Shown in pieces: positions 7,420 through 53,915 of a stretch of DNA of 64,000 nt (the stretch's first letter is position 1; each line of letters starts with the position of its first letter). The position numbers were made by a program, and so were the translations under genes. The notes beneath the pieces were generated by a model. It searched no databases and had not been told where the DNA came from. It was given only the letters and a program-made list of their open reading frames with translations. This DNA is from Candidatus Omnitrophota bacterium. Lineage in GTDB: Bacteria > Omnitrophota > Gorgyraeia > JAHJTE01. Where the stretch lies: contig JAHJTE010000002.1 of assembly GCA_018830005.1 (NCBI GenBank), forward strand, positions 7,053-71,052, read 5' to 3'.

Positions 7420-7423
7420 TCTG

Positions 7424-8560
7424 ATGCCAAAGAAGGCGTTACTACTTTATATATCTGAGGTTTCCGGCCACCATCAGGCAACATTGGCTATTGAGAGTGC
7501 CTTAAAACGGCTTGATCAAAATATAGAGGTCTTGAATCTAAACGCCTTCAATTATACCACTCCAATCTCAGAAAAAATCATCAATCAACTTTACATCAAA
7601 GTAATTAAAAGAACACCTAAGATATGGAAGTATCTTTATGATAATCCCAGCGTAATAGAAAACACTCGGCAAATTAAAAAGACCATCCACAAACTAAATT
7701 CCCCGAAGTTAAAAATACTCATAGATAGATTCAAGCCCACTTGTATTGTATGTACACAGGCCTATCCTTGTGGAATGATTGCTGACTGTAAAAGGACGTT
7801 TGGTCTGAATATACCCTTAATCGGTGTCTTAACCGATTATGCACCGCATTCCTTTTGGATTTACGATGAAGTTGATTATTATATCGTCCCGGCAGAAGAA
7901 GTAAAGCAGGCATTCGTACAAAAGGGTGTTGAGGCAAAGAAAGTTATCAACTTCGGTATCCCAATTGACCCCAAGTTTGTCCAGAGCAAAAATAAAGAAC
8001 TTATTGCACACAAACTCGGCTTAAACCCTTCAGGGCCCATTATAATGATAATGGGGGGTAGCCAGGGAATAGGGCCCATTAAAAAAATAGTGAACGACTT
8101 AGAGGCATTTCCGTTTGAGTTACAAATTTTAGTTATCTGCGGCGTAAATAAAACTCTTCTTAAATGGCTAAAGCGTAAATCAAAAAAGGGCAAGAAAAAA
8201 CTAATTGCCTTAGAATATGTGGAGACAATTGATGAATTGATGGAAATCGCAAGTTTAATTATTACCAAACCTGGCGGACTTACAACAGCAGAAGCCTTAG
8301 CCAAAGGACTTCCGCTTCTAATCGTCAATCCTATCCCCGGCCAAGAAGTTGCTAATGCGAATTTTCTGACAAAGAAAGGTGCCGGAATAACAATTGAGAA
8401 AATGAAAGACTTCTCAAAGTCAGCTACAGAGCTGTTAATCGACCAAAAAAGATTAAACGACATGTCCTTTCAGGCGCGCCAAATCAGCAAACCCAAGGCT
8501 GCCATTGACATTGCTTCATTAATTATAAAACTATGTTCCAATACTTCATTTACAGACTAG
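7424..8560 (+). CDS. GT28 family glycosyltransferase (MGDG-synthase/UgtP-like diacylglycerol glycosyltransferase)
   Basis: MGDG_synth-like N-terminus and ITKPGGLTTAEALAKGLPLLIVNPIPGQEVANANFL C-terminal GT28 motif. Confidence 0.65.
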   Translation: MPKKALLLYISEVSGHHQATLAIESALKRLDQNIEVLNLNAFNYTTPISEKIINQLYIKVIKRTPKIWKYLYDNPSVIENTRQIKKTIHKLNSPKLKILIDRFKPTCIVCTQAYPCGMIADCKRTFGLNIPLIGVLTDYAPHSFWIYDEVDYYIVPAEEVKQAFVQKGVEAKKVINFGIPIDPKFVQSKNKELIAHKLGLNPSGPIIMIMGGSQGIGPIKKIVNDLEAFPFELQILVICGVNKTLLKWLKRKSKKGKKKLIALEYVETIDELMEIASLIITKPGGLTTAEALAKGLPLLIVNPIPGQEVANANFLTKKGAGITIEKMKDFSKSATELLIDQKRLNDMSFQARQISKPKAAIDIASLIIKLCSNTSFTD

Positions 8561-9393
8561 CTCACTTCATAGTTTCACACTCACCGTTAAAGGTTGGCTA
8601 TTCAATAGCAAAATTTGTTGCTACTTGGCAGTATCTATGCTCGAATACAGACAGGAATATTGTTAAGAAAAACTTGAAGGCAATCTTTCCTGAAAAAAGC
8701 GATTCAGAAATTAAGGCAATTACAAAACAGGTATTTATCAATTTTGGCAAATATCTTGCAGATTTTTTGCGCTTTTCAAAAATAGATAAAGAATTTATCA
8801 AAAACAAAGTTAAAATTAAAGGCTTAGAAAGCATTGATAAGGTTTTAAGGCAATCAAACGGCGGCATAATAATCACAGCGCATCTTGGTAACTGGGAACT
8901 TGCCGGGGCTATCATGGGGGTACTGGGTTATAAGATTATTGGCATAGTGATGCCCCATAAACATAAAAAGGTGAGCGATTTCTTCAATAAGCAACGCCAA
9001 ATAAATAATATGGAGGTTTGTTCCTTAGGAAACGCGGCTCGTTTTTGTTTATCAGGATTAAAACAGAATAAGATGGTAGCTGTTGTGGCTGACAGGGACT
9101 TTACCGAGCATGGCCTAGTAACTGATTTTCTAAATAAAAAAGCGCTTTTACCCAAAGGTGCCGCTTCCTTTCATCTTAAGACGCAGGCTCCAATAATTTA
9201 TGCTTTTCTTACCAGATGCAAAGATGACACATTCAGATTTGAACTTGGACAACCCCCTAAGTTTAATTTAACAGGAGAGAAGGAAAAAGATATCGAAATA
9301 ATTATCAAAACATACATAACTATAATTGAAAAATACATAAAGACATATCCAGAACAATGGTTTATGTTTAGAAAATATTGGATAGATGAATAG
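8533..9393 (+). CDS. LpxL/HtrB-family lysophospholipid (lipid A-type) acyltransferase
   Basis: ITAHLGNWELAG is the H-x4-E/D LPLAT motif. Overlaps the GT28 gene. Confidence 0.6.
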   Translation: MFQYFIYRLAHFIVSHSPLKVGYSIAKFVATWQYLCSNTDRNIVKKNLKAIFPEKSDSEIKAITKQVFINFGKYLADFLRFSKIDKEFIKNKVKIKGLESIDKVLRQSNGGIIITAHLGNWELAGAIMGVLGYKIIGIVMPHKHKKVSDFFNKQRQINNMEVCSLGNAARFCLSGLKQNKMVAVVADRDFTEHGLVTDFLNKKALLPKGAASFHLKTQAPIIYAFLTRCKDDTFRFELGQPPKFNLTGEKEKDIEIIIKTYITIIEKYIKTYPEQWFMFRKYWIDE

Positions 9394-11171: not shown

Positions 11172-11675
11172 ATGATACACATTTATACAGGAAATGGAAA
11201 AGGTAAAACAACAGCAGCTATTGGTCTGGCTATGAGAAGAGTCGGCGCAGGAGGTAAGGTCTGCATTATTCAATTCTTAAAGAAAGGCATTTATAATGAA
11301 TTAAAATCATTAAACAAAGTATCAGGCATCACTATAAAACAGTTTGGTAGAAGCTGTCTGCTTAAGGCCAAGCCTACTAAAGAGGACAAAAAGTTAGCAA
11401 AGCAAGCGATTGCTTACGCAAAAGGAGTCATCCAGAAAAAAAACTACGACCTTTTAATTCTGGATGAAATAAATGTTGCTTTAAAATTAAAACTTATAAG
11501 TCTTAATATAGTTTGCGAATTTCTTAAGGCCTTGCCTGAATCTGTTGAGTTGGTACTTACAGGTAGGTATGCGCCTAAGAAATTAATTTCCTTAGCTGAT
11601 TATGTCGCTGAAATAAAAGAAGTGAAGCATCCCTTTAAATTAGGTATTCCTGCCAGGAATGGCATTGAGTTCTAA
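11172..11675 (+). CDS. cobO: Cob(I)yrinic acid a,c-diamide adenosyltransferase (CobO/BtuR type)
   Basis: IHIYTGNGKGKTTAAIGLAMR...LLILDEIN...ELVLTGR. Confidence 0.8.
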   Translation: MIHIYTGNGKGKTTAAIGLAMRRVGAGGKVCIIQFLKKGIYNELKSLNKVSGITIKQFGRSCLLKAKPTKEDKKLAKQAIAYAKGVIQKKNYDLLILDEINVALKLKLISLNIVCEFLKALPESVELVLTGRYAPKKLISLADYVAEIKEVKHPFKLGIPARNGIEF

Positions 11676-12535
11676 TGCATCTTTTAACCAAATTTAACAT
11701 CTATCTAATAGCATTTTTTCTAAATTTCCTCTTTCTTAACAATTCTTCTGCATCTGGCGATGACAAAGATATAAGGATTATTTCCATTTCACCTGCGGCA
11801 ACTGAAATTATCTATGCAATAGGTGCTGGTGATTCTTTAGTCGCTGTAAGCTCTTATTGTAATTGGCCGCCTGAAGCCAAGGCCAAAACCAAAATAGGTT
11901 CTTTCAGTTGGCCCAAGATCGAAAAAATTATTTACCTGCAGCCAGATATTGTTATTACTGCCGGATTAGAACAAGCACCAGTTGTTCAGCAGCTTAAGGC
12001 GCTTAATATTAGAACAATAGTCTGCTCTGCAAAAACAATAGAAGGGCTGTTTGGTGCTATTGAGGAAATAGCTTTGGCAGTGGATAGAATTGAGGAAGGG
12101 CAGAAGTTGATTAAAGTTATGTCAGCTAGGATAAATCAGATTAAAAGCAGATTTGAAGATATACCGGTTAATAAACGGCCAAAGGTTTTATTGGAGCTAT
12201 GGGATGAGCCTTTGATTGTTGCCGGAACTGATTCGCTTATCGGTCAGGTTATTGAGCTTGCGGGAGGCAAAAATATCGCCTATGATGCAATGCACGCCTA
12301 CAGTCGTTTTAGTTATGAGCTCGTGCTTAAGAGAAATCCTGACTACATCATCGCTGTTTATATGAAACGAGGCCAAGATAAGGAACGTATTAAGAATCGT
12401 TTTGGATATAGCAATATCAAAGCTGTGAAGAATGACCACATTATTTGTGACATTAACCCAGATATTATTTTAAGGGCTGGTCCAAGAATTACAGAGGCGA
12501 TTGATGAGATCAACAAAAGGATATACGCACAATAG
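11675..12535 (+). CDS. btuF: ABC transporter periplasmic binding protein, BtuF-like
   Basis: Signal peptide and IISISPAATEIIYAIG...PDIVITAG pattern of class III PBPs. Confidence 0.65.
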   Translation: MHLLTKFNIYLIAFFLNFLFLNNSSASGDDKDIRIISISPAATEIIYAIGAGDSLVAVSSYCNWPPEAKAKTKIGSFSWPKIEKIIYLQPDIVITAGLEQAPVVQQLKALNIRTIVCSAKTIEGLFGAIEEIALAVDRIEEGQKLIKVMSARINQIKSRFEDIPVNKRPKVLLELWDEPLIVAGTDSLIGQVIELAGGKNIAYDAMHAYSRFSYELVLKRNPDYIIAVYMKRGQDKERIKNRFGYSNIKAVKNDHIICDINPDIILRAGPRITEAIDEINKRIYAQ

Positions 12536-13487
12536 GTCATTAATTATAATTGCTTTATTTGCGCTATTGATAATAGGATCTGTCCTGCATTTGTCTTTGG
12601 GTGCTGTAAAGATCAATATATTTACTCATCTTGATGAAATCTCCCTAAAGATTATTCAATTACGTTTTATGCGTCTTGTGCTTGCGCTTATTGCCGGCGG
12701 CGGCCTTGCCGTGAGCGGCGTCATCTTACAAGGCCTAACACGAAATCCTTTAGCCGAACCTTATCTTCTGGGCATCTCCAGTGGCGCAGCTTTAGGTGCA
12801 GTCTCTTGCTTATTAATCGGGGTTGATATCAGACTTCAACCTATCATATCTTTTTTATTTGCTGCCTTAACGTTTTATGCCGTATACTCAATCGCTAAGG
12901 TCAATCAAAAGATATTTATGCATTCCTTAATCTTATCCGGGGTAATAATAAGTATACTTATTTCCAGTGTGACAATGTTTCTTGTGTCTCTTTCTCCAAA
13001 TGAAGCCTTGCATGGAATGTCTTGGTGGTCATTAGGAAGCCTGCATATATTCAGTCAACCGCTGTTAATAATTGTGGGAGTAACAGTAACAATAGCAGTT
13101 GTCTTTAGCCTCTTTTTTGCGCGCAACCTTAATGCTATCAGCCTTGGAGAAGAAGAGGCAATGCATCTGGGCATAGATGTTGAAAAGACAAAAAAGATTC
13201 TGTTTTTGATTGCCGCATTAATAACCGCTAGCTTAGTATCAACCTGCGGTATGATTGGTTTTGTAGGTCTTATAATTCCGCATATGTGCCGCTTACTGCT
13301 TGGTCCAAATCATAGGGTTTTAATGCCAGCATCTGTTTTAGCTGGGGCGGCCTTTCTAATCATAGCTGATATATTCTCACGCAACTTAATGGGTTCTGTA
13401 GAGGTGCCTATTGGGGTCATAACAGCCTTGATTGGTGCACCTGTTTTTATTATTCTCTTCAAGCACAAACTAGGTTCAAGAGTATGA
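12501..13487 (+). CDS. btuC: FecCD-family ABC permease (BtuC-like)
   Basis: Polytopic membrane protein with GIS(S)GAALGA and LGxxxA permease motifs. Confidence 0.7.
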   Translation: MMRSTKGYTHNRSLIIIALFALLIIGSVLHLSLGAVKINIFTHLDEISLKIIQLRFMRLVLALIAGGGLAVSGVILQGLTRNPLAEPYLLGISSGAALGAVSCLLIGVDIRLQPIISFLFAALTFYAVYSIAKVNQKIFMHSLILSGVIISILISSVTMFLVSLSPNEALHGMSWWSLGSLHIFSQPLLIIVGVTVTIAVVFSLFFARNLNAISLGEEEAMHLGIDVEKTKKILFLIAALITASLVSTCGMIGFVGLIIPHMCRLLLGPNHRVLMPASVLAGAAFLIIADIFSRNLMGSVEVPIGVITALIGAPVFIILFKHKLGSRV

Positions 13488-14278
13488 ATTTGATAGATGT
13501 CGAAAATCTAAACTCCGGCTACGAAAAAGACAAAGTCGTCTTGAAGGACATTAGCTTTGAGGTAGGGGAAGGAGAGTTTTTAGGTATTATTGGCCCTAAT
13601 GGCTCAGGAAAGACTACACTCCTAAAATCATTAAGCGGCATCATCAAGCCTTTCAAAGGCAAGGTACTATTAAACAATAGAGACGTATACAAAATGAGTT
13701 TGCGCGAAATAGCTAGAGCCTGTGCCTTTGTTTCATCAGACACCTCAATTGCCTTTCCTTTTAGCGTATTAGATATAGTCTTAATGGGAAGAATCCCTCA
13801 TATAAAAAATTTAGGCGGCTATAGTAAAAATGATATACGCATTGTCAGGGAGTCTTTAGAGCTGACTGACAGCACTGCATTTATAAATCGGCCTATATAC
13901 ACACTTAGTGCGGGTGAACGCCAACGCGTCTTCCTTGCCAAGATGCTGGCTCAGGAGCCTAGGGTGGTTTTTCTTGATGAACCAACAACACATTTGGATA
14001 TTGGCCATCAAATCCAAATACTCAGCCTTTTAAAAAGATTTAATCAACAAGGAAAATTTACTATAGTGGTTGTTTTGCATGACTTGAACCTCGCAAGTGA
14101 ATTCTGCACCCGCCTAATCCTTCTTAATAACGGCAAGATTGAAAAGGCCGCTAGTCCAGAAGAAGTGCTCACCTATGAAATAATTGAAAAGGTTTATAAC
14201 ACCCTTGTGATTGTTAGTAAAAATCCAGTAAGTAGTAAACCCCATATATTATTAGTCAAGGAAGAAGAAAAGATATAG
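13484..14278 (+). CDS. btuD: ABC transporter ATPase (BtuD/FepC-like)
   Basis: Walker A GPNGSGKTT, LSAGERQRV signature, Walker B VVFLDEPTTHLD. Confidence 0.8.
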   Translation: MNLIDVENLNSGYEKDKVVLKDISFEVGEGEFLGIIGPNGSGKTTLLKSLSGIIKPFKGKVLLNNRDVYKMSLREIARACAFVSSDTSIAFPFSVLDIVLMGRIPHIKNLGGYSKNDIRIVRESLELTDSTAFINRPIYTLSAGERQRVFLAKMLAQEPRVVFLDEPTTHLDIGHQIQILSLLKRFNQQGKFTIVVVLHDLNLASEFCTRLILLNNGKIEKAASPEEVLTYEIIEKVYNTLVIVSKNPVSSKPHILLVKEEEKI

Positions 14279-14296: not shown

Positions 14297-14330
14297 TTGA
14301 CATCTTGATAAAATAATCTAAAATAGATTT
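14297..14330 (+). promoter_or_regulatory. Promoter TTGACA-N16-TAAAAT preceding the riboswitch
   Basis: ttgacatcttgataaaataatctaaaat, seen directly. Confidence 0.4.
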
Positions 14331-14334
14331 ATCT

Positions 14335-14612
14335 TTGAAAATTAAATCCTACAGGTCCTTTCTCTAGGAAAGAGAAAGGGATAACAGGGAATCCTAAAAA
14401 GGGAACGGTCCCGCCGCTGTATAAGGTAACGAAATCCCAGAAAGCCACTTCTTAAAAGATCTTTTAGAGGGAAGGCAGGGAGAGTAGGTTATGAAGCCTT
14501 GAGTCAGAAAACCTGCCTGTAAAAATAAGCCTCGAGGAAGGGTGAAGTTAAACAGGGCGCAACCCCGAAGCTGACGATTAGAAGAATCGTAGATTTCGGG
14601 GTTTTTTATTTT
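14335..14612 (+). ncRNA. Cobalamin (AdoCbl) riboswitch with terminator expression platform
   Basis: Conserved core GGGAAcGGTCCCGCCGCTGTA, upstream GGGAATCC, and B12-box-like GAGTCAGAAAACCTGCC. Followed by hairpin ccccgaag...cttcgggg and T8 at 14564-14612. Confidence 0.65.
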
Positions 14613-14617
14613 TAAAA

Positions 14618-15223
14618 ATGCCTAAGAAGCTAATCTTAATTCGGCACGGTCAAACAGACTGGAATTATCAAAAAAGATATACTGGCTTTACGGATATAGG
14701 CCTAAATAAAAAAGGCAAGGCCCAGGCAAGAAGGCTTTCTAAGAAGTTAAGCAAAGTAGAAATTCATAACGTCTACGCAAGCAATATGAAAAGAACAGTT
14801 CAGTTTGCCAAGATAATCTTTAAAGATAAACCAGTAAAAGAATTTTCAGGGCTTCGCGAGATGAATTTTGGCATACTTGAAGGCTTGACATATCAGGAGA
14901 TTATGAAAAAGCACTCTCAAGCTTATACGAAATGGTTAGCCAACCCATCAAAACACACTATTCCAGAAGGTGAAAATTTAAATAATTTCGCAAAAAGAGT
15001 AAGAAAAACATTAAAGACGCTATTATCAGACAATAAGAATAAAACAATCGCAATATTTACTCACGCCGGCCCCATAAAAGTAATTTTATGCGATATTTTA
15101 AAAATAAGTTTAAGAGAGACTTGGCGTATAGAGCCAAAATCAGGCAGCATTAATATTATTGAATTTACTAGGGGCAAGGCTAGAATCCACTCTACATCCA
15201 ACACGGCATATTTAAATGGGTAA
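14618..15223 (+). CDS. cobC: Alpha-ribazole phosphatase (histidine phosphatase family)
   Basis: LILIRHGQTDWN phosphoglycerate-mutase-like RHG motif, in a cob operon context. Confidence 0.7.
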   Translation: MPKKLILIRHGQTDWNYQKRYTGFTDIGLNKKGKAQARRLSKKLSKVEIHNVYASNMKRTVQFAKIIFKDKPVKEFSGLREMNFGILEGLTYQEIMKKHSQAYTKWLANPSKHTIPEGENLNNFAKRVRKTLKTLLSDNKNKTIAIFTHAGPIKVILCDILKISLRETWRIEPKSGSINIIEFTRGKARIHSTSNTAYLNG

Positions 15224-15740
15224 GATTATATTTATTCTTGGCGGGGCAAGAAGCGGAAAAAGCGCCTATGCTGTTAAATTGGCTAAGGGGCTTGATAAAA
15301 AGGTCGCGTTTCTTGCTACTTGTCTACCTTTAGATAAAGAAATGAAAGAGCGAATCTCTCTCCATAAGAAAAAAAGGCCTGCGCATTGGCAAACATTTGA
15401 GCAACCTAAAGATTTGACCCCAACACTTAGAAAGATATGTCCTAAATTTAATGTTATCATTATTGACTGTCTTACAATTCTCATATCTAATCTTTTAGGG
15501 CAAGGGCTCAAATGTGCTGCTGTAGAAAATAGGATTGCTAAGATGTTGAAAATCCTTAAACAAAGTAAGCCTACATCAATCATTGTCTCTAACGAAGTCG
15601 GTTTAGGCATAGTCCCCGAGAACGCGCTAGGAAGAAGATTTAGGGACTTGGCTGGAAGAGTGAATCAGAACGTAGCAGCCAGAGCTAATGATGTTTTTTT
15701 TATGGTTTCAGGCCTGCCTTTAAAAGTCAGAAAGGGATAA
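15216..15740 (+). CDS. cobU: Adenosylcobinamide kinase / adenosylcobinamide-phosphate guanylyltransferase
   Basis: IIFILGGARSGKSAYA P-loop with CobU-like length and context. Confidence 0.75.
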   Translation: MGKIIFILGGARSGKSAYAVKLAKGLDKKVAFLATCLPLDKEMKERISLHKKKRPAHWQTFEQPKDLTPTLRKICPKFNVIIIDCLTILISNLLGQGLKCAAVENRIAKMLKILKQSKPTSIIVSNEVGLGIVPENALGRRFRDLAGRVNQNVAARANDVFFMVSGLPLKVRKG

Positions 15741-15741
15741 A

Positions 15742-16803
15742 ATGGACAAAATACAAGAAATTATTAAGAAAATAGAGGAACTTGATCAAGGTCTTATGAC
15801 TAAGGCCCAGGCTAGATTAGATAACCTCACTAAACCGCAAGGAAGTTTAGGCCGACTAGAAGAAATAGCAAAGCTTATTGTTGGTATTAGCAGGAATGAG
15901 AATCCGTCTATTGGAAAAAAAGTAATTTTTACCTTTGCCTCTGATCATGGAGTAACGCAAGAGAAGGTAAGCGCCTTTCCAAAAGAGGTTACAGCACAGA
16001 TGGTCTATAATTTTTTAAGTGGCGGTGCGGGAATTAACGTCTTAGCAGGTTGTGTTGGCGCAAAGGTTATAGTTGCAGATATGGGAATTGCACTTGATTT
16101 AAAGCCGCATCCAAAACTAATTATCAATAAAATCAATTATGGTACCAAAAATATGGCAGCCGGTCCAGCAATGACAAGAGAAGAGGCGGTAAGGTCTGTT
16201 GAAGCAGGTATTGAAATATTTCTAGATGTGTTTAGAGAAGGCGTAGATATTGTCGGCACAGGAGAAATGGGCATTGGGAATACAACAGCCTCAAGCGCTA
16301 TAGCTGCCTGCCTACTAGAAGAGCCGGTTGAAAAAATGACAGGTAGAGGAACAGGCATTGATGATAAGGCCTTCTCTAATAAGGTTGGAGTAATAGAAAA
16401 AGCGCTTAGTATAAATAAACCAAATCCTAAAGACCCTTTAGATGTATTATCTAAAGTAGGTGGATTTGAAATAGGAGGCCTTGCTGGGGTAATTCTAGGG
16501 GCGGCCTCAAAAAGAATTCCTGTAGTCATAGATGGTTTTATTTCCGGAGTAGCTGCCTTAATTGCTTACAGGTTAGAGCCAAAAGTAAAGAATTATATGA
16601 TTGCTGCCCACTGTTCTGTAGAAAAAGGACATAGAATAATCTTAGACTACCTGGGTCTCAAACCACTCCTAGATTTAGAATTACGCCTTGGAGAAGGAAC
16701 CGGGGCTGCTTTAGGAATGGGAATAATTGAGGCTAGTATTAAAATCTTTACTCAGATGGCTACGTTTCAAAAAGCATCTGTTTCCGAGAAAATCGAAGAA
16801 TGA
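15742..16803 (+). CDS. cobT: Nicotinate-nucleotide--dimethylbenzimidazole phosphoribosyltransferase
   Basis: LDNLTKPQGSLGRLEEIA, the typical CobT N-terminus, and GEMGIGNTT. Confidence 0.8.
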   Translation: MDKIQEIIKKIEELDQGLMTKAQARLDNLTKPQGSLGRLEEIAKLIVGISRNENPSIGKKVIFTFASDHGVTQEKVSAFPKEVTAQMVYNFLSGGAGINVLAGCVGAKVIVADMGIALDLKPHPKLIINKINYGTKNMAAGPAMTREEAVRSVEAGIEIFLDVFREGVDIVGTGEMGIGNTTASSAIAACLLEEPVEKMTGRGTGIDDKAFSNKVGVIEKALSINKPNPKDPLDVLSKVGGFEIGGLAGVILGAASKRIPVVIDGFISGVAALIAYRLEPKVKNYMIAAHCSVEKGHRIILDYLGLKPLLDLELRLGEGTGAALGMGIIEASIKIFTQMATFQKASVSEKIEE

Positions 16804-17543
16804 AAAGGTTTTTAATTGCCCTCCAGTTTTTAACTACCCTGCCCATAAAGATTAAATCAGAGATTAAAAATGAGGATTTCGGTAAATCTTTATTGTATTT
16901 TCCTATAGTAGGGATGTTAATCGGTCTTTTATTAAGTTTAATTCTTTCTCTTTTTAACTTCTTGCCCCATTTGGTGTTAGGCGTATTTATCTTATTAGCG
17001 TCCTTTATCATAACAGGTGGAATTCACTTAGATGGATTCGCTGATACTTGTGACGGATTTTATGGCTCCAAACCCAAAAAAAAGATACTCGAGATAATGC
17101 GAGATAGTCGAGTCGGAACAATGGGGGTAACAGGTTTAGTCTGTCTCCTGCTTTTAAAGTTTGCACTTATCGTAAATACTCCCAAAGACATGCTTTGGAA
17201 ATTATTGATTATGATGACTGCATTTGCAAGGTTATCTCAAGTTCTTGCCTGCTATACTTCTGGATATGCACGTCAGGAAGGTAAGGCAAAATACTTCATA
17301 GAATATGCCCTTAAGAAAGATGCTGTTATCGGGGCCTTATTTACCTTGAGCTTATTCTTATGGCTGATGCAGATAAAAGGTGTTGCCCTGTTTCTTATTC
17401 CTATACCTTTAATATTTTTATTCATAAATTATATTAAGAAAAGAATTAATGGAATGACCGGCGATACAATTGGTGCAGTGAGTGAACTGGCAGAAGTGTC
17501 TATTTTGCTAAGTTTTCTTGTTATAAACAGGCTTTATATATGA
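16800..17543 (+). CDS. cobS: Adenosylcobinamide-GDP ribazoletransferase (cobalamin synthase)
   Basis: LQFLTTLPI start and a polytopic membrane protein. Confidence 0.75.
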   Translation: MKRFLIALQFLTTLPIKIKSEIKNEDFGKSLLYFPIVGMLIGLLLSLILSLFNFLPHLVLGVFILLASFIITGGIHLDGFADTCDGFYGSKPKKKILEIMRDSRVGTMGVTGLVCLLLLKFALIVNTPKDMLWKLLIMMTAFARLSQVLACYTSGYARQEGKAKYFIEYALKKDAVIGALFTLSLFLWLMQIKGVALFLIPIPLIFLFINYIKKRINGMTGDTIGAVSELAEVSILLSFLVINRLYI

Positions 17544-18235
17544 AGAATTCCCTAGCCATATCTTCCTGGAGCGGAGGAAAGGATAGTTGCCTTGCTTGCT
17601 ATAAGGCGATGAGACTTGGCTACAAAATAAAATACCTCCTAAATTTTATCTCTAAAGAATATAAACGCTGCTGTTTTCATGGAATTGAAGCTAGGCTGCT
17701 AAAATTGCAGGCTGAACTTGTAGGAATTCCACTCGTTCAAAAAGAGGTTTCACCTGACATGAAAAAGTATGAACAAGAGTTTAAACAGGCTGTAAACGAG
17801 CTTAAAGATAAAGGCATTAGAGAAATGGTGTTTGGAGACATCTATTTGGATGAACACAAAATCTGGGTTGAACGCGTATGCAAGGAAATCGGAATTAAGC
17901 CTATAGAACCCCTCTGGAACCTTTCACCAGAAAAAATCGTAGAAGATTTTATTAATCTAGGATTTAAAGCAATCGTTGTTAGCTGTAAGGCTGATATGTT
18001 TGGAAAAGAGTTTATTGGAAGATATGTAGATAAAGATTTCCTAAAAGAACTTACAGCAAGAGGGATTTGTCCTTGCGGTGAGAACGGCGAATTTCATACC
18101 TTTATTGTTGATGGACCTATATTTAAAAAAAGAATAGAGATAACAGAAAGTCAAACAGTTCTTAAAAAAGGCTTTTGGGAGTATTGGTTTTTAGATATTA
18201 AGAAATATCAAGTTAAAGGAAAGGAGGAAAATTAA
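17540..18235 (+). CDS. PP-loop ATPase of the Dph6/MJ0570 (DUF71) family, translationally coupled to cobS
   Basis: SWSGGKDSCLACY PP-loop, ...GDIYLDEHKIWVERVCKEIGIKPIEPLW, CGENGEFHTFIVDGPIF all match the diphthine-ammonia ligase N-domain. 4-nt overlap with cobS. Confidence 0.7.
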   Translation: MKNSLAISSWSGGKDSCLACYKAMRLGYKIKYLLNFISKEYKRCCFHGIEARLLKLQAELVGIPLVQKEVSPDMKKYEQEFKQAVNELKDKGIREMVFGDIYLDEHKIWVERVCKEIGIKPIEPLWNLSPEKIVEDFINLGFKAIVVSCKADMFGKEFIGRYVDKDFLKELTARGICPCGENGEFHTFIVDGPIFKKRIEITESQTVLKKGFWEYWFLDIKKYQVKGKEEN

Positions 18236-18249
18236 TACAACTTGATAGA

Positions 18250-18415
18250 AGGTATAGACAAAAACACTTTATATAGGCAAAGGAAGTAGGGGTGAAATTC
18301 CCCTTGCTGTCCCGCAACGGTAATACCCAGGCTTGATAAAAGCCTAGGTGAGCCCGGACGATTGCCTCGCTATTTCTGCTTGCAATAAGCAGGAAAGTAT
18401 CCTCGCGGAAGGAGA
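18250..18415 (+). ncRNA. Second cobalamin riboswitch, upstream of btuB
   Basis: GGGGTGAAATTCCCC and GCTGTCCCGCAACGGTAA core motifs. B12-box only approximate (GAGCCCGGACGATTGCC). Confidence 0.5.
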
Positions 18416-18421
18416 AAAACA

Positions 18422-20284
18422 ATGAATAAATTTAAATGCTTGTTTACTTTGACTTTATTATGTATTTTCTGTCTAATTAATACTAAGGTAGATGCAAATG
18501 AGTCTGGTACATCTCATTACACAATTGATTTAGAAAAGATTGTAATTACGCCTTCTAGGCTAAAGCAGGAATATAGGCATTCCACCCAAAATATAAGTAT
18601 TATCACTAAAGAAGACATTGAGTCTGAAGGCAAGCTTGAGATCTCAGAGGTCCTGGATTTATTGCCTTCAGTAGATATATTAGAGTATGGTTCTACTGGC
18701 TCTACGCGAGCTATCCATACCCGAGGTGCCTCATCCAGCCAAGTCCTCACTCTTGTTGACGGAAGACCAGTCAATACCCCGCGCGATGGTCTCACAGATT
18801 TTAATCAAATTCCTCTTTCAAACATTGAAAGGATTGAAGTTTTGCGCGGCCCTTTAAGTAGTATATATGGCGCGAATGCGGTAGGCGGGGTTATCAATAT
18901 AATTACTAAAAGCGGAAAAGAAAAAAAACAGACTAAAAGTTCAAGCAAATTCGGTTCTTTCAATACAAAATCTGTTTCTTTAACCCACTCAAATAAAATA
19001 GATAAGTTCGATTATTTTATATCCAGCGACTACCTAGCCTCGCATGGCCATAGAGATAATGCTGACTATTTAAGCAACAATGTAAATACAAAATTAGGGA
19101 TTGAGTTAGATGCTGACAATCATATTAATACTTCTTTTGGATACTACAATTCAGAAGTAGGAACCCCGGGCTTAATTACTAATCAAGACCTGGATGATAG
19201 ACAGGAAACATTTAAAAAATATATCGATATAACTTATGATGGGAAAATGTTGGAAGGTCAAGATATAGTTTTAAAGGTATATCAGAATTTTGATAGATTG
19301 GAATTTATTGAAGCCTTTGATCCGCTTGATAAAGATACACAACAGACCAAGGTTTATGGGACAGATTTTCAGATTTCTCAAGTTCTATTCGATATTTATC
19401 GATCCGCAATTGGATTAAGCTTTCAAGAGCACAGACTTAACAGTTCAAACAGCGGCAAACATAGCTATAGCCTGAAAGGGACTTATTTTGAATCAGAGAC
19501 AGACATTTTTAATAAAGGGTCCTTGAAGTTCGGAGCACGCTGGGATGACTATTCAAATTTTGGAGATAGGATTAGCCCTAGTGCTAGTTTTAATCTTTGG
19601 TTATTTGATAAAATAAAGCTGCATGCCTTGGCAGCAAAATCTTTCCGTGCGCCTACTTTTAATGATCTTTACTGGCCGCAAGAAGATTGGGGTATTTGGG
19701 GCGGGGTAGAAGGGAATTCTAATCTTGGTCCTGAAAAAGCAATTTCATATGAAGCAGGCATAGGCGGGTATTCCTTAGGAAGACTTAAGACTGATATTAC
19801 ATATTTTATGACAGATTTCGATGATTTAATAGAATGGACAGTTGATGACTCTTGGTGGTGGAGACCTGAAAATGTTAGCTCTGCATCTATAAGAGGAGCT
19901 GAGCTTGAGACAGAATTCGTTACAAATGACCATTTTAAAGCTAATTTTAACTACACTTACCTAAGAGCTAAAAATAAAGATACAAAGAACTGGTTAATAT
20001 ATCGGCCTAGACATCTGTATAAGTTAAAATTAACCTACTCACCTGTCCCTAGATACGAATTGGGCTTAAGCGGCATATACAAAACAAAAAGATTCAGCAA
20101 TGCAAGCAATACGACCTTTCTCAAGGCCTACTTTATTATGAATATGAACCTTTCCTACAAAATAAATGATTTTGCGCAAATTTTGTTTGAGACTAAAAAT
20201 ATCTTTGATAGAACGTATCAAGAGGAGAGGGACTATTCTATGCCAGGAAGGGCATTTTATAGCGGGTTTAAATTAACATTTTAA
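18422..20284 (+). CDS. btuB: TonB-dependent outer-membrane receptor, BtuB-like
   Basis: Signal peptide, TonB-box-like EKIVITPSR, plug and barrel domains, C-terminal ...GFKLTF. Confidence 0.75.
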   Translation: MNKFKCLFTLTLLCIFCLINTKVDANESGTSHYTIDLEKIVITPSRLKQEYRHSTQNISIITKEDIESEGKLEISEVLDLLPSVDILEYGSTGSTRAIHTRGASSSQVLTLVDGRPVNTPRDGLTDFNQIPLSNIERIEVLRGPLSSIYGANAVGGVINIITKSGKEKKQTKSSSKFGSFNTKSVSLTHSNKIDKFDYFISSDYLASHGHRDNADYLSNNVNTKLGIELDADNHINTSFGYYNSEVGTPGLITNQDLDDRQETFKKYIDITYDGKMLEGQDIVLKVYQNFDRLEFIEAFDPLDKDTQQTKVYGTDFQISQVLFDIYRSAIGLSFQEHRLNSSNSGKHSYSLKGTYFESETDIFNKGSLKFGARWDDYSNFGDRISPSASFNLWLFDKIKLHALAAKSFRAPTFNDLYWPQEDWGIWGGVEGNSNLGPEKAISYEAGIGGYSLGRLKTDITYFMTDFDDLIEWTVDDSWWWRPENVSSASIRGAELETEFVTNDHFKANFNYTYLRAKNKDTKNWLIYRPRHLYKLKLTYSPVPRYELGLSGIYKTKRFSNASNTTFLKAYFIMNMNLSYKINDFAQILFETKNIFDRTYQEERDYSMPGRAFYSGFKLTF

Positions 20285-20369: not shown

Positions 20370-21056
20370 ATGGAGCATTCTAGTGCCCAATTTAAAGTAA
20401 TCATATTAATTTCGATATTTATTCACGCTGTGTTCCTTCTAGAATTGCCACGATTTAAAATAATACCTCCAAAGAAATCTTTAACGAATCTGGAGGTAAC
20501 ATATAAGATCCTAAAGCTAGAAAATGCCTTGAATAAAAAATTAAAGCAGAATGTTAATCAACGCGAGGATCTTAGTAAGCTTAAAAAAAATAGACTACTT
20601 CTAAAGGCAGGAGACATGTCTAGTCCGCCGGCATTTTCGCAAAAAGCAGATCTTTTGAGTACCGGTAAGGTTATCGTACGTAATGTACAATTGCCTACGA
20701 GAAAAGAAAAATCACCCATAGAAATAGTAAAGCTTCCTGTGGTCAGCTCTCCTTTTATGTCAAATCCGGCATATTTGAGCTATTACCAGATAATCCGGGA
20801 GAAGATCAAAAATGTGGCTCACTTAAACAATACTTTAGTTAACGAAGGAGAGGTGTATTTATCCTTTGTTGTCGATTCCAGTGGTCAACTCATAACTGCA
20901 AAGGTCGTTAACGAAAAATCAACTAATAATCAAGAACTACAATATATGGCACATAGCTTCTTAGAAAAAGCAGCGCCTTTTCCAGTATTCCCACCAAAAC
21001 TCAAGCATCAGCAACTCTCCTTCAATGTCATTATTGAATTCAGATTGGTTGACTGA
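20370..21056 (+). CDS. tonB: TonB-family energy transducer (C-terminal TonB domain)
   Basis: N-terminal TM anchor and C-terminal EGEVYLSFVVDSSGQLITAKVV...SFNVIIEFRL. Confidence 0.5.
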   Translation: MEHSSAQFKVIILISIFIHAVFLLELPRFKIIPPKKSLTNLEVTYKILKLENALNKKLKQNVNQREDLSKLKKNRLLLKAGDMSSPPAFSQKADLLSTGKVIVRNVQLPTRKEKSPIEIVKLPVVSSPFMSNPAYLSYYQIIREKIKNVAHLNNTLVNEGEVYLSFVVDSSGQLITAKVVNEKSTNNQELQYMAHSFLEKAAPFPVFPPKLKHQQLSFNVIIEFRLVD

Positions 21057-21135: not shown

Positions 21136-21297
21136 ATGTCCGAAGTAGAAGTACGCAAAGGCGAACCATTTGAATCTGCATTGCGTCGTTTTAAGAAGAA
21201 GATCGAACGCGAAGGAATATTAAGAGAGGTCAGAGACCGCAAACACTATGAAAAGCCTAGTGAAAAAAGAAGGAAAAAAGGCAAAAGAAAAAAATAA
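21136..21297 (+). CDS. rpsU: 30S ribosomal protein S21
   Basis: [48 protein letters not shown]. Below the ORF-track size cutoff. Promoter ttgaca-17-tatagt at 21073-21101. Confidence 0.85.
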
Positions 21298-22199
21298 TGT
21301 TTGCACTTTCTTTATCCTGGAACGTCAACAAATTTAGAAGTGCAAAGAAACAGATTGATGAGATAGTTAAGGTAGGATTTAAGGAATTAGAGCTTAACTT
21401 TAGTCTTACCGAAAAAAGAATCAGACAAATAGATAGGCTGAGGAAAGAAGGCATGATTAGAATCCTCAGCTGTCATAATTTCTGCCCGATACCTAACTGC
21501 CTCTCAACTAAAAAGGCGTTACCAGACTATTATTCCATTTCCTCGCTAAACGAGAAGAAGCGGCGTCTTGCTTTAAAATATACCAAAAAGTCAATAGAGA
21601 CTGCTTCACAGCTAAAGGCAAGGGCGCTTATCTTGCATTCAGGAAGAGTGGATATGCAAGATAAAAGCAAGCAGCTCATGCAATTGTTTGCTGCCGGCAA
21701 GGGCAATTCCTCTGCTTTTAAAAGTATTAAAAACAGAATGCGCATCTTACGTGAAAAGAGGAAGAAGCCGCATTTAGAGAAGGCCCTCACGAGTATAGGA
21801 GAGCTTTCTAATTACGCAAAAAAGCTGAATGTAAAGCTTGGTCTGGAAAATCGTATCTATTATTCTGAAATCCCACAACTAGATGAATTCGATATTCTGC
21901 TTCAAAACACAAATGCCTTTTTTTGGTTTGATACAGGCCATGCCAGGATTATGCAAAAGCTCTGGGGTATCAGAGAGAAGGAATACTTAAAGAGATACTC
22001 CTCTAAGTTTATTGGCGTCCATCTTCACGATGTAATTGGCATGCAGGATCATCTTGCCCCGGGCGTAGGAGAACTTAATTTCAAATCTTTAGCGCCTTAT
22101 ATTAAAAGAAATACGATTAAGGTAATTGAAGCACATGCTGCGGCTAGTAAAGAAGAGTTGGGCCAAAGCATTAATTTCTTAAATAAAATTTTTAGTTGA
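21297..22199 (+). CDS. Xylose-isomerase-like TIM-barrel protein (sugar phosphate isomerase/epimerase, AP-endonuclease-2 fold)
   Basis: ...LGLENRIYYSEIP...FWFDTGHARIM...IGVHLHDV pattern. Start overlaps the rpsU stop (taATG). Confidence 0.55.
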   Translation: MFALSLSWNVNKFRSAKKQIDEIVKVGFKELELNFSLTEKRIRQIDRLRKEGMIRILSCHNFCPIPNCLSTKKALPDYYSISSLNEKKRRLALKYTKKSIETASQLKARALILHSGRVDMQDKSKQLMQLFAAGKGNSSAFKSIKNRMRILREKRKKPHLEKALTSIGELSNYAKKLNVKLGLENRIYYSEIPQLDEFDILLQNTNAFFWFDTGHARIMQKLWGIREKEYLKRYSSKFIGVHLHDVIGMQDHLAPGVGELNFKSLAPYIKRNTIKVIEAHAAASKEELGQSINFLNKIFS

Positions 22200-22200
22200 T

Positions 22201-23013
22201 ATGTTGCGTGAGTCTGTTGCCTCAGGCAAGTTTTATCCTTCTAGCGCTGCTGCAATTAGAAAGCAGATTAATTCCCTTCTTCCTAAAGAAAGGGCGCAAA
22301 AATCATCTGCGATTGCAGCCATGCTTCCTCATGCCGGCTATATTTACTCCGGAGAGGTAGCAGTTAGCGTAATAGCGCAACTTGAAATTAGAAAAAATAT
22401 AATCCTCCTAGGGCCGAATCATACTGGCATAGGAAAGAGGGTAAGTATTTCATCAAAAGGTAAGTGGAACACACCTATGGGGGATGTGGAAATAAACGAA
22501 GAAATCGCAAAGGCATTTCTTTCCAATTCTGAAATTTTAGAAGAAGATATAAGCGCACATGTTTACGAACACTGCCTGGAAGTAGAACTTCCAATCCTGC
22601 AATATTTTAGTAGTGATTTTAAGATTGTTCCGATTGTTGTTGGGCAAATTAGCCTAAGTGAAATACTAAAACTTGCCGCCGACCTTGTAAAAACAATTAA
22701 GACAGCTGATCTTGTTGATGAAACCTTGTTTTTGGCAAGTTCGGATATGACGCATTATGAAAGTCAGCAGGAGGCAAATTCAAAAGACAAGCTTGCAATT
22801 TCCCAAATAGAGAAGCTCTCAGCAAAAGGCTTAATAGAAATCGTAAGTAAAAATAATATCTCAATGTGTGGGGTATACCCTACAGCTGTAGTTATTGAAG
22901 CAGCACGGATATTAGGAGCCAAGAAGGCCGAGCTGATAAAATACGAAACAAGCGCTAAAGCAAGCGGCGATTATTCTCAAGTAGTAGGTTACGCTGGTTT
23001 GATTATCAAATGA
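22201..23013 (+). CDS. AmmeMemoRadiSam system protein B (MEMO1-like)
   Basis: LPHAGYIYSGEVA...LLGPNHTG...SSDMTHYES, the Memo-family His motifs. Confidence 0.75.
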   Translation: MLRESVASGKFYPSSAAAIRKQINSLLPKERAQKSSAIAAMLPHAGYIYSGEVAVSVIAQLEIRKNIILLGPNHTGIGKRVSISSKGKWNTPMGDVEINEEIAKAFLSNSEILEEDISAHVYEHCLEVELPILQYFSSDFKIVPIVVGQISLSEILKLAADLVKTIKTADLVDETLFLASSDMTHYESQQEANSKDKLAISQIEKLSAKGLIEIVSKNNISMCGVYPTAVVIEAARILGAKKAELIKYETSAKASGDYSQVVGYAGLIIK

Positions 23014-53645: not shown

Positions 53646-53759
53646 AACCCCCATTAACATAACCTCTTATTTTACAGTCAATTACGTCGAATAATAGAAA
53701 AAAACTAATTTTTGTGGTATACTTATAGTGTTATATTGTAGCTAATACGATAAAGGCAA

Positions 53760-53915
53760 ACCATTTGAAAGAGTGGGGCGGGCCGAAAGCCCGGTCCTGA
53801 AAAGGACCGCAAAACTTATAGAGCCTAAATCCTAAAAACTTAGGATATGGCAGTCAGTTGCCGAACATAGTGGATAAAAAATGCCTATTCTTTCAAAGGA
53901 ATAGGCATTTTTTTT
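53760..53915 (+). ncRNA. Candidate small RNA: three hairpins plus intrinsic terminator
   Basis: gggccgaaagccc, ggtcctgaaaaggacc, atcctaaaaacttaggat hairpins, then gcctattctttcaaaggaataggc + T8. Confidence 0.25.

What the first reader, a model, noticed from the sequence alone, without database searches (positions are those of the whole stretch)
17540..18235. Dph6/MJ0570-type PP-loop ATPase embedded in the cobalamin operon, translationally coupled to cobS
The protein carries the SGGKDS PP-loop and a full diphthine-ammonia-ligase-like N-domain. Dph6 performs ATP-dependent amidation of a carboxylate with free ammonia. Lying between cobS and the btuB riboswitch, it is a candidate ammonia-dependent corrinoid side-chain amidase, for example re-amidating salvaged cobyrinate or cobinamide precursors. 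That would be a function not assigned to this family in bacteria.
Basis: inference. Interest (0 to 1): 0.55.

Follow-up and report, generated by a model that had tools for sequence, protein, structure and literature searches.

The report
B12-salvage PP-loop ATPase (DUF71-B12)
The gene is real and sits in a vitamin-B12 salvage operon, but it belongs to the "DUF71-B12" subgroup whose B12 link was published in 2012, and whose actual reaction has not been determined in any paper I could find.

Summary
ORF 17540-18235 (+) encodes a 231-aa protein that matches PF01902 (DUF71) over its full length (E=1e-62). It has an SGGKDS PP-loop, and its ATG overlaps the cobS stop codon (ATGA). It is the last gene of a cobC-cobU-cobT-cobS operon that follows a cobalamin riboswitch. 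The operon is flanked by cobA-btuFCD upstream and a btuB-like receptor downstream.

It is not a diphthine-ammonia ligase. The catalytic EGG[E/D]xE motif of Dph6 is replaced by ENGEFH, and the protein scores below the NCBIfam Dph6 cut-off. ENGE[F/Y]H together with B12 gene clustering is exactly how de Crecy-Lagard et al. (2012, Biol Direct 7:32) defined the "DUF71-B12" subgroup, so the claim that no B12 role was assigned to this family is wrong.

In my own survey, 48 of 80 species-representative loci carry B12 loop-assembly or transport genes within 5 kb. A same-strand cobalamin riboswitch lies upstream in 12 of 18 B12-context loci tested.

The reaction remains unknown. I found no experimental paper. 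New here: DUF71-B12 shares operons with CbiR and, in one bacterial locus, with CbiZ, which weakens the 2012 "CbiZ substitute" proposal. Verdict: a new member of a known kind, of modest interest.

The parts
17540..18235 (+). DUF71-B12 subgroup PP-loop ATP pyrophosphatase (231 aa), the gene of the finding
   Evidence: ORF. PF01902 at E=9.8e-63. TIGR03679 Dph6_archaeal scores 156 bits, below the 197 cut-off. AF2 model has pLDDT 97 and TM 0.84-0.90 to 2D13/3RK1.
17570..17587 (+). PP-loop S11-G-G-K-D-S16 (ATP alpha/beta-phosphate binding)
   Evidence: Read directly from the sequence. G13 and K14 are invariant, and S11, G12 and D15 are >=90% conserved, in 83 diverse homologues.
18080..18100 (+). E181-N-G-E-F-H186-T187, the DUF71-B12 signature that replaces the Dph6 motif EGG[E/D]xE188
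   Evidence: Read directly from the sequence. Aligned to PF0828 GEGGEFE. E181, G183, E184, H186 and T187 are invariant in alignment A2. The signature is defined in PMC3541065.
14297..14324 (+). Promoter-like site TTGACA-16-TAAAAT (11/12), just upstream of the riboswitch
   Evidence: This is a consensus match only. The total count of such sites in the region is not above the shuffled controls.
14336..14534 (+). Cobalamin riboswitch leading the cobC-cobU-cobT-cobS-DUF71 operon
   Evidence: RF00174 at 92.9 bits (gathering score 31.5), E=8.7e-22.
14618..15223 (+). cobC, alpha-ribazole phosphatase
   Evidence: TIGR03162 at 168.6 bits, above the 162.9 cut-off.
15216..15740 (+). cobU, adenosylcobinamide kinase / guanylyltransferase
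   Evidence: PF02283 at E=2.6e-59. NF004469 at 197.6 bits, above the 161 cut-off.
15742..16803 (+). cobT, NaMN:base phosphoribosyltransferase
   Evidence: TIGR03160 at 459 bits, above the 319 cut-off.
16800..17543 (+). cobS, cobalamin-5'-phosphate synthase. Its stop codon overlaps the DUF71 start codon.
   Evidence: PF02654 at E=7e-57. TIGR00317 at 166.5 bits, above the 110 cut-off. The overlap is read from the sequence.
18263..18401 (+). Probable second cobalamin riboswitch (below threshold) ahead of btuB
   Evidence: RF01482 at 34.5 bits, below the gathering score of 50, E=7.6e-5 in the local search. Matches recur at the same position in L004 (37 bits) and L003 (36.8 bits). The stem covaries in alignment A3.
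18422..20284 (+). btuB-like TonB-dependent receptor
   Evidence: Plug and TonB_dep_Rec domains. The best NCBIfam match is TIGR01779 TonB-B12, at 252 bits, below its 600 cut-off.
20370..21056 (+). TonB-like protein
   Evidence: TIGR01352 tonB_Cterm at 32.6 bits, above the 27.1 cut-off. The Pfam TonB_C match is weak.
11172..11675 (+). cobA/btuR, corrinoid adenosyltransferase
   Evidence: PF02572 at E=5e-60.
11675..14278 (+). btuF-btuC-btuD-like ABC importer (11675-12535, 12501-13487, 13484-14278)
   Evidence: Peripla_BP_2, FecCD and ABC_tran domains. The best NCBIfam match for the binding protein is BtuF, below its cut-off.

Best explanation
The gene encodes a member of the DUF71-B12 subgroup of PP-loop ATP pyrophosphatases. 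It is made only when cobalamin is scarce, as the last, translationally coupled gene of the riboswitch-led cobC-cobU-cobT-cobS operon. It acts on an imported corrinoid.

Committed mechanism:
1. The conserved PP-loop binds ATP.
2. The enzyme adenylates a free carboxylate on a salvaged, incompletely amidated or incomplete corrinoid, releasing PPi.
3. Ammonia, or possibly an amine, displaces AMP to form the amide. This yields a corrinoid that CobA, CobU and CobS can carry through to a functional cobamide.
4. His186, which replaces the Dph6 catalytic Glu, would act as a general base or as a contact to the corrinoid.

Status of the evidence:
- Shown: the fold, an intact ATP site, operon membership, riboswitch control of the operon, and conserved B12 synteny.
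- Inferred: that the substrate is a corrinoid (high likelihood, about 0.85), that the chemistry forms an adenylate (about 0.7), and that the outcome is amidation of a carboxylate (about 0.3-0.35).
For: Protein and motif:
- Full-length PF01902 match with an intact SGGKD PP-loop.
- Confident model superposing on the ATP-bound PF0828 structure 3RK1.
- The ENGEFH signature of the published DUF71-B12 subgroup.
- All 102 of the best 150 library representatives that have a recognisable motif carry His at this position.

Operon:
- 4-nt overlap with cobS.
- Tightly packed cobC-U-T-S genes behind an RF00174 riboswitch.

Synteny:
- 48/80 species-representative loci have B12 loop-assembly, late-biosynthesis or btuF/C/B-like genes within 5 kb, and 43/80 have one directly adjacent.
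- The rate is 12/17 among loci >=50% identical to the window protein.
- The association persists with different gene orders in different phyla.
- A same-strand cobalamin riboswitch lies upstream in 12/18 B12-context loci tested.
- Loci without B12 genes show no alternative recurrent neighbour family.

Corrinoid as substrate:
- One natural fusion joins DUF71 to a BtuF-like domain (P0249).

Support for amidation specifically:
- The only characterised relatives (Dph6) amidate a carboxylate with ATP and NH3 (PMC3541065, PMC3585130).
- In four loci (L041, L048, L056, L036) an asparagine-synthetase-like PP-loop gene without a detected glutaminase domain sits next to the DUF71 gene. Three of these are B12 uptake loci; L036 is a 2-kb contig with no other context.
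Against: - No biochemical or genetic test of any DUF71-B12 protein was found in the searched literature. A 2016 review still lists it as 'function unknown, B12 salvage'.
- The Glu-to-His change at the catalytic position suggests chemistry different from Dph6.
- About 40% of sampled His-type loci show no B12 context and no same-strand riboswitch, so the wider clade may not be monofunctional.
- In some loci DUF71 sits beside cbiP, which already amidates four side chains, so a plain amidation role could be redundant there.
- Selection bias: the loci were retrieved with a pattern that contained the His motif.
Confidence: 0.35

Rival explanations
1. Functional analogue of bacterial CbiZ (the 2012 proposal). 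The enzyme would open an alternative route for salvaging pseudo-B12 or other unusable cobamides, either by cleaving them to adenosylcobyric acid or by another remodelling step.
For: PMC3541065 reports that genomes with CbiB carry either CbiZ or DUF71-B12, and that the two are strictly anti-correlated in bacteria. In my sample CbiZ occurs in only 1 of 83 DUF71 loci.
Against: - PP-loop enzymes activate carbonyl or carboxyl groups by adenylation; they are not hydrolases.
- In L041, a Deltaproteobacteria MAG, a BtuF-CbiZ fusion (PF01955, E=2e-52) and DUF71 lie in the same riboswitch-led operon, so the two are not mutually exclusive.
- In L001 DUF71 shares an operon with a bona fide CbiR remodelling enzyme (NF041277, 252 bits, above the 105 cut-off).
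- The window locus and its Omnitrophota relatives have no cbiB within 10 kb, and the window has none in 64 kb. CbiB would be needed to reuse cobyric acid.
Confidence: 0.15
2. CbiB bypass. The enzyme would adenylate the f-propionate of (adenosyl)cobyric acid and ligate aminopropanol to give cobinamide, which CobU then phosphorylates.
For: The chemistry is Dph6-like with an amine in place of ammonia. The window locus has a kinase-capable cobU but no cbiB or cobD in 64 kb.
Against: In five loci (L014, L040, L043, L045, L081) DUF71 lies in the same cluster as cbiB and the cobD-type aminotransferase, so it does not simply replace CbiB. Nothing indicates a source of aminopropanol.
Confidence: 0.1
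3. Another B12-related adenylation, not on a corrin carboxylate. Examples are activation of a carbonyl or amide oxygen (as in QueC, TilS or GMP synthetase) on the nucleotide loop or on a lower-ligand precursor.
For: The commonest neighbours in my sample are the nucleotide-loop genes cobS (21 loci), cobT (16), cobU (15) and cobC (14). Apart from chance-level matches (TM about 0.2), the nearest non-DUF71 fold match is QueC, which converts carboxylate to amide to nitrile. The Glu-to-His change hints at altered chemistry.
Against: The association with transporters (btuF 19 loci, btuB 18; 75/102 in the 2012 study) points to the imported corrinoid itself. No specific candidate reaction is missing from the loop-assembly pathway.
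Confidence: 0.2
4. Genuine diphthine-ammonia ligase, as the NCBI record names it.
For: NCBI names P0001, which is 100% identical, 'diphthine--ammonia ligase'. The best NCBIfam match is TIGR03679.
Against: - The score of 156 bits is below the equivalog cut-off of 197.
- The catalytic E188 is replaced by His.
- Diphthamide is a modification of archaeal and eukaryotic EF-2 and is absent from Bacteria (PMC3541065).
- The operon context is entirely B12.
Confidence: 0.01
5. A passenger gene with a function unrelated to B12, which merely sits at the end of the operon.
For: 32/80 homologous loci show no B12 context.
Against: The gene has a 4-nt overlap with cobS. The association recurs with shuffled gene orders across many phyla and in archaea. 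The non-B12 loci share no other recurrent neighbour family.
Confidence: 0.04

Closest known systems
DUF71-B12 subgroup of DUF71/COG2102 (de Crecy-Lagard et al. 2012, Biol Direct 7:32; e.g. P. furiosus PF0295, C. perfringens YP_695745)
   Same: The ENGE[F/Y]H signature, single-domain architecture of about 220-230 aa, an intact PP-loop, and clustering with btuFCD-type transporter and cobamide salvage genes.
   Different: Nothing defining differs. Here the gene is fused into a cobCUTS nucleotide-loop operon rather than sitting next to cbiB. The window clade (>=69% identity) carries extra conserved cysteines (C17, C20, C44, C114, C149, C177, C179), most of which are not general to the subgroup.
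Dph6 diphthine-ammonia ligase (EC 6.3.1.14; P. furiosus PF0828 / 3RK1, P. horikoshii PH1257 / 2D13, yeast YLR143W)
   Same: Same fold (TM 0.84-0.90, 29% identity), the same PP-loop, the same conserved His47 and C-terminal G-E-x-G-E motif. The adenylate-forming ATP-to-AMP+PPi chemistry is probably shared.
   Different: The catalytic Glu188 is His. The residues that the 2012 model places at the EF-2 interface differ in the DUF71-B12 subgroup, according to the paper. The protein scores below the TIGR03679 cut-off. The host is a bacterium, which has no diphthamide. There are no RidA domains, unlike eukaryotic Dph6.
CbiZ (adenosylcobinamide / pseudo-B12 amidohydrolase, PF01955)
   Same: Proposed in 2012 to fill the same physiological niche, the entry of salvaged corrinoids into the pathway. 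It occurs in similar operons.
   Different: There is no sequence or fold relationship. CbiZ is a hydrolase with no ATP requirement. It co-occurs with DUF71 in one bacterial operon (L041).
CbiR cobamide-remodelling phosphodiesterase (AP endonuclease 2 superfamily; Mok et al. 2020, PMC7733943)
   Same: An accessory salvage enzyme encoded in cobUST-type operons of non-producers.
   Different: The fold (TIM barrel) and the chemistry are unrelated. It is present together with DUF71 in L001. The window's own AP_endonuc_2 gene (21297-22199) is not CbiR (27.9 bits, below the 105 cut-off).
CbiA/CobB and CbiP/CobQ corrinoid side-chain amidotransferases
   Same: If the committed mechanism is right, the outcome is the same: ATP-dependent conversion of a corrin carboxylate to an amide.
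   Different: These are glutamine-dependent enzymes of the MinD/ParA-like class that hydrolyse ATP to ADP and Pi via an acyl-phosphate. They have no homology to DUF71. cbiP lies beside DUF71 in some loci (L033, L042, L043, L045).

Membership tests
DUF71 / COG2102 / PF01902 PP-loop ATP pyrophosphatases | Full-length match to the family HMM above the curated cut-off | tested here: met
   PF01902 at 212 bits against a 23.2 cut-off, covering profile positions 4-218 of 219.
DUF71 / COG2102 / PF01902 PP-loop ATP pyrophosphatases | PP-loop SGGKD at the N-terminus | tested here: met
   S11-G-G-K-D15 read from the sequence. Conserved in 83 homologues.
DUF71 / COG2102 / PF01902 PP-loop ATP pyrophosphatases | The fold of PF0828 and PH1257 | tested here: met
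   AF2 model with pLDDT 97. Foldseek gives TM 0.84-0.90 and E down to 4e-21 against 2D13 and 3RK1.
Dph6 diphthine-ammonia ligase (EC 6.3.1.14) | Strictly conserved EGG[E/D]xE188 motif with the catalytic Glu | tested here: not met
   The window protein has ENGEFH186, which aligns residue for residue to PF0828 EGGEFE188.
Dph6 diphthine-ammonia ligase (EC 6.3.1.14) | Score above the equivalog cut-off of NCBIfam TIGR03679 | tested here: not met
   156.2 bits against a 197.3 cut-off.
Dph6 diphthine-ammonia ligase (EC 6.3.1.14) | The organism makes diphthine on EF-2 (dph2 and dph5 present) | not testable with these tools
   Only 64 kb of the genome is available. Bacteria lack diphthamide according to established knowledge (PMC3541065). 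The source is a Candidatus Omnitrophica MAG.
DUF71-B12 subgroup (de Crecy-Lagard 2012) | The ENGE[F/Y]H signature in place of the Dph6 motif | tested here: met
   ENGEFH at residues 181-186.
DUF71-B12 subgroup (de Crecy-Lagard 2012) | Physical clustering with B12 transport and salvage genes | tested here: met
   The window order is cobA-btuFCD, riboswitch, cobCUTS-DUF71, probable riboswitch, btuB-tonB. 48/80 related loci have B12 genes within 5 kb.
DUF71-B12 subgroup (de Crecy-Lagard 2012) | Absence of bacterial CbiZ from the same genome (reported as strict anti-correlation) | tested here: inconclusive
   No CbiZ in the 64-kb window, but the rest of the genome is not available. One bacterial locus (L041) has both in one operon.
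DUF71-B12 subgroup (de Crecy-Lagard 2012) | Co-occurrence with CbiB in the genome | not testable with these tools
   No cbiB in the window. cbiB is adjacent in 5/80 related loci. A whole-genome check was not possible.
Cobalamin riboswitch control (RF00174 / RF01482) | Aptamer match above the gathering score upstream on the same strand | tested here: met
   RF00174 at 92.9 bits at 14336-14534, ahead of cobC.
Cobalamin riboswitch control (RF00174 / RF01482) | A second aptamer between the DUF71 gene and btuB | tested here: inconclusive
   RF01482 at 34.5 bits, below the gathering score of 50. The match recurs at the same position in L003 and L004, with a covarying stem.
   This needs an enzyme assay. 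No report was found in the literature searches.

The most novel reading that the evidence does not exclude
DUF71-B12 is an ammonia-dependent, adenylate-forming 'corrinoid repair' amide synthetase. It would re-amidate deamidated or incompletely amidated corrinoids, such as cobalamin or cobinamide monocarboxylic acids and cobyric-acid-type precursors, after uptake. It may work together with the asparagine-synthetase-like PP-loop partner seen in some operons. This would be a salvage step with no known enzyme, non-homologous to CbiA and CbiP.
Probability: 0.25. Interest if true: 0.6.

Novelty: new member of a known kind. Interest (0 to 1): 0.3.

Why it matters
No paper in the searched library reports the reaction of DUF71-B12, a gap open since the 2012 prediction, even though the subgroup is very widespread. 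Knowing the reaction would show which corrinoid forms these organisms can use, and so how B12 is shared in anoxic communities. This window does not itself answer that question. It adds a clean, riboswitch-controlled, translationally coupled example, and the survey adds two constraints: co-occurrence with CbiR, and co-occurrence with CbiZ. In practical terms, the public annotation 'diphthine--ammonia ligase' on these bacterial genes is almost certainly an over-annotation.

Tried and rejected
1. Looked for an experimental characterisation of DUF71-B12 with eight full-text searches (DUF71, COG2102, TIGR00290, PF01902, MJ0570, PF0295, Dph6+B12, PP-loop+corrinoid, diphthine-ammonia ligase+cobalamin, CbiR). 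Only the 2012 prediction and papers citing it turned up.

2. Considered that window ORF 21297-22199 (AP_endonuc_2) might be the remodelling enzyme CbiR. Rejected: NF041277 scores 27.9 bits against a 105 cut-off. The gene is paired with an AmmeMemoRadiSam-B gene, and the pair is a conserved flank in relatives.

3. Considered that the seven cysteines conserved in close homologues might mark a [4Fe-4S] or Zn site general to the family, as in TtuA or QueC. Only C179 (75%), C114 (64%) and C17 (48%) are common in the wider subgroup; the others are specific to this clade. No model coordinates were available to measure Cys-Cys distances, so this stays open for the window clade.

4. Looked for an alternative conserved context in the 32 loci without B12 genes. 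There was none: the most frequent Pfam family occurs in 2 of 96 neighbours, and there is no same-strand riboswitch.

5. Looked up the contig encoding the exact window protein. It is not on record.

6. Wanted a genome-level presence/absence check of cbiB, cbiZ and cbiA for the carriers.

7. Fusion partners other than BtuF (GNAT, DUF4116, Cys_rich_CWC) were not informative for B12.
Full report
**1. The observation**

The ORF at 17540-18235 (+) is real and encodes 231 aa. The sequence shows the PP-loop S11-G-G-K-D-S16 at nt 17570-17587. It also shows an ATGA overlap between the ORF's start codon (17540-17542) and the cobS stop codon (17541-17543).

The protein matches Pfam PF01902 (Diphthami_syn_2, the DUF71 family) end to end at E=9.8e-63. 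An AlphaFold2 model built on 83 diverse homologues is very confident (pLDDT 97, pTM 0.92). Across its full length it matches only the two solved Pyrococcus DUF71 proteins: PH1257 (2D13) and PF0828 (3RJZ, 3RK0, 3RK1), at TM 0.84-0.90 and 29% identity. Apart from a few chance-level matches (TM about 0.2), the next fold match is QueC, at E=8e-3. The window protein is 100% identical to a protein of a Candidatus Omnitrophica MAG that NCBI names 'diphthine--ammonia ligase'.

**2. The surroundings**

All of the following genes lie on the + strand:
- cobA/btuR (11172-11675).
- btuF-, btuC- and btuD-like importer genes (11675-14278).
- A promoter-like site at 14297-14324.
- A cobalamin riboswitch at 14336-14534 (RF00174, 92.9 bits).
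- cobC, cobU, cobT, cobS and the DUF71 gene. These are packed with overlaps of 8, 4 and 4 nt and one 1-nt gap.
- A 186-nt spacer.
- A btuB-like TonB-dependent receptor (18422-20284) and a TonB-like gene (20370-21056).

The spacer matches the AdoCbl riboswitch model RF01482 at only 34.5 bits, below the gathering score of 50. Equivalent sub-threshold matches occur at the same position in an Omnitrophota relative (L004, 37 bits) and a Planctomycetales MAG (L003, 36.8 bits). The alignment shows a compensatory stem, GGGG/CCCC in the window against CTGG/CCAG in L004. I take it as a probable divergent cobalamin riboswitch.

HMMs built from related loci detect no cbiB, cobD-type aminotransferase, cbiP, cobY or cbiZ anywhere in the 64-kb window.

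**3. It is not Dph6**

The alignment to PF0828 places the window's G-E-N-G-E-F-H186 on G-E-G-G-E-F-E188. The Glu that the 2012 structural model puts next to the diphthine carboxylate and the ATP alpha-phosphate is therefore a His. NCBIfam's Dph6_archaeal equivalog model scores 156 bits, below its 197 cut-off.

An HMMER search of 1.84 billion cluster representatives gave 4954 hits at E<=0.001. Among the best 150, all 102 with a recognisable motif read E-x-G-E-[F/Y]-H-T. In an alignment of 83 diverse members:
- Invariant: G13, K14, G99, E181, G183, E184, H186, T187.
- At least 90% conserved: W10, S11, G12, D15, H47, Q57, Y77, D100, P124, L125, W126, G160, G180, P193, F195.

**4. It is already described**

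De Crecy-Lagard, Forouhar, Brochier-Armanet, Tong and Hunt (Biol Direct 2012, 7:32; PMC3541065) split DUF71 into Dph6 and a 'DUF71-B12' subgroup. They defined the subgroup by the ENGE[F/Y]H motif and by clustering with B12 genes: 75/102 members lie next to btuCDF-type transporter genes and 18/102 next to cbiB. They also reported anti-correlation with bacterial CbiZ. They proposed that the subgroup either acts as an Ado-pseudo-B12 amidohydrolase or has another role in pseudo-B12 salvage.

A 2016 review by the same group lists it as 'function unknown, B12 salvage'. Eight full-text searches found no experimental follow-up. It remains correct that no specific reaction has been assigned.

**5. Independent test of synteny**

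I kept the best 80 loci. One caveat applies: the search pattern contained the His motif.

I called ORFs and labelled them with HMMs seeded from the window's own genes and from neighbour clusters checked against Pfam.
- 48/80 loci have a B12 loop-assembly, late-biosynthesis or btuF/C/B-like gene within 5 kb.
- 43/80 have such a gene directly adjacent.
- 33 loci have less than 3 kb of flank on one side, so these figures are underestimates.
- Neighbour families by number of loci: cobS 21, btuF 19, btuB 18, cobT 16, btuC 15, cobU 15, cobC 14, cobA 8, cobY 8, archaeal cobT 6, cbiB 5, cobD-type aminotransferase 5, cbiP 4.

The association falls with distance from the window protein:

| Identity to window protein | Loci with B12 context |
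|---|---|
| >=50% | 12/17 |
| 43-49% | 21/30 |
| <=42% | 15/33 |

Gene order varies between phyla:
- Syntrophaceae: btuB-cbiR-cobU-cobS-cobT-DUF71.
- Nitrospirota: DUF71-cobT-cobS-cbiP-cbiB-cobD-cobU.
- Dehalococcoidia: cobT-cobS-DUF71-cobU.
- Bacteroidota: btuB-DUF71 or DUF71-btuF.

This variation argues for functional linkage rather than inherited gene order. Omnitrophota relatives with 70-76% identical proteins keep the window's arrangement, including the flanking genes.

A same-strand cobalamin riboswitch lies upstream in 12 of 18 B12-context loci tested. It was found in none of 20 loci without B12 neighbours; one of those, L080, has a riboswitch on the opposite strand. The loci without B12 genes share no other recurrent neighbour family: the most frequent family occurs in 2 of 96 neighbours.

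**6. What bears on the mechanism**

- The intact PP-loop and the conserved H47 and G-E-x-G-E elements argue that ATP-to-AMP+PPi adenylation is retained.
- One natural fusion joins DUF71 to a BtuF-like binding domain (P0249). This supports a corrinoid substrate.
- In L001 the operon also encodes a bona fide CbiR (NF041277, 252 bits against a 105 cut-off).
- In L041, a Deltaproteobacteria MAG, the operon reads riboswitch-btuB-cobA-[BtuF-CbiZ fusion]-[Asn-synthetase-like]-DUF71. DUF71-B12 therefore coexists with both known classes of cobamide-remodelling initiators. Together with its non-hydrolytic fold, this weakens the 2012 'stands in for CbiZ' idea.
- DUF71 co-occurs with cbiB and cobD in five loci. 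This argues against a simple CbiB bypass.
- An asparagine-synthetase-like PP-loop gene, with no glutaminase domain detected, sits next to DUF71 in four loci (L041, L048, L056, L036). That makes a second amidation-type enzyme in these loci; L036 is a 2-kb contig with no other context.

My estimates are about 0.3-0.35 for that specific reaction, about 0.85 for 'acts in corrinoid salvage', and about 0.01 for a true Dph6 function. The Glu-to-His substitution and the presence of cbiP in some of the same loci are the main internal arguments against simple amidation.

**7. Verdict**

The gene is a new member of a known kind. The new elements contributed here are the co-occurrence of DUF71-B12 with CbiR and with CbiZ, the recurrent Asn-synthetase-like partner, and a probable divergent riboswitch ahead of btuB. 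Interest is modest (0.3). It would rise to about 0.6 if corrinoid re-amidation were demonstrated.

Noticed in passing
window 21297-23013 (+): An AP_endonuc_2 TIM-barrel gene (PF01261, E=1e-15) is followed by an AmmeMemoRadiSam system protein B gene (TIGR04336, 303 bits). The pair lies just downstream of the B12 locus and is conserved there in Omnitrophota relatives L083 and L084. It is not CbiR (NF041277 scores 27.9 bits against a 105 cut-off).
   Followed up: partly
window 53745-53865 (+): A c-di-GMP-I riboswitch (RF01051, 55.7 bits against a gathering score of 35). A c-di-GMP-I riboswitch also lies near the B12 locus of another Omnitrophota MAG (L042 9507-9594).
   Followed up: no
L041 5214-7277 (+): A 687-aa fusion of a BtuF-like binding domain with CbiZ (PF01497 and PF01955) in a Deltaproteobacteria MAG. 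It lies in the same riboswitch-led operon as an Asn-synthetase-like gene (7219-8196) and DUF71 (8109-8861). This is a counter-example to the reported strict CbiZ/DUF71-B12 anti-correlation in bacteria.
   Followed up: partly
L056 7997-8929; L041 7219-8196; also L048 and L036: An asparagine-synthetase-like PP-loop gene (PF00733, about 310-325 aa, no glutaminase domain detected) sits immediately upstream of the DUF71 gene in L041, L048 and L056, which are B12 uptake loci. In L036, a 2-kb contig with no other context, it lies immediately downstream. It may be a two-enzyme partner.
   Followed up: partly
L083 6821-8203; L007 6339-7697; L042 40-1452: A radical-SAM/SPASM gene of about 450-470 aa is inserted in or next to the cobU-cobT-cobS-DUF71 operon in some Omnitrophota. 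Its function is unknown. It is absent from the window.
   Followed up: no
L007 7663-8388 and 10251-10943: Two DUF71 paralogues flank the btuB-like receptor gene in one Omnitrophota MAG.
   Followed up: no
window 17540-18235 (residues C17, C20, C44, C45, C114, C149, C177, C179): The window clade (>=69% identity) has five invariant and two nearly invariant cysteines, several of them next to active-site motifs (SGGKDS-C-LA-C, CC-F-H47, C-P-C-G-ENGEFH). Only C179, C114 and C17 are common in the wider subgroup. A clade-specific metal or Fe-S site is possible. It could not be tested because no model coordinates were available.
   Followed up: partly
window 17540-18235; P0001, P0035, P0038, P0057, P0072, P0117: Public records name these bacterial proteins 'diphthine--ammonia ligase'. 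Given His at the catalytic position and the B12 operon context, this is very likely an over-annotation that has spread across many MAGs.
   Followed up: yes
P0249; also P0251 and P0262 (library representatives): Natural fusions of His-type DUF71 with other domains: a BtuF-like periplasmic-binding-protein domain in P0249, and GNAT acetyltransferase domains in P0251 and P0262. The GNAT fusions hint that part of the clade has a non-B12 role.
   Followed up: no
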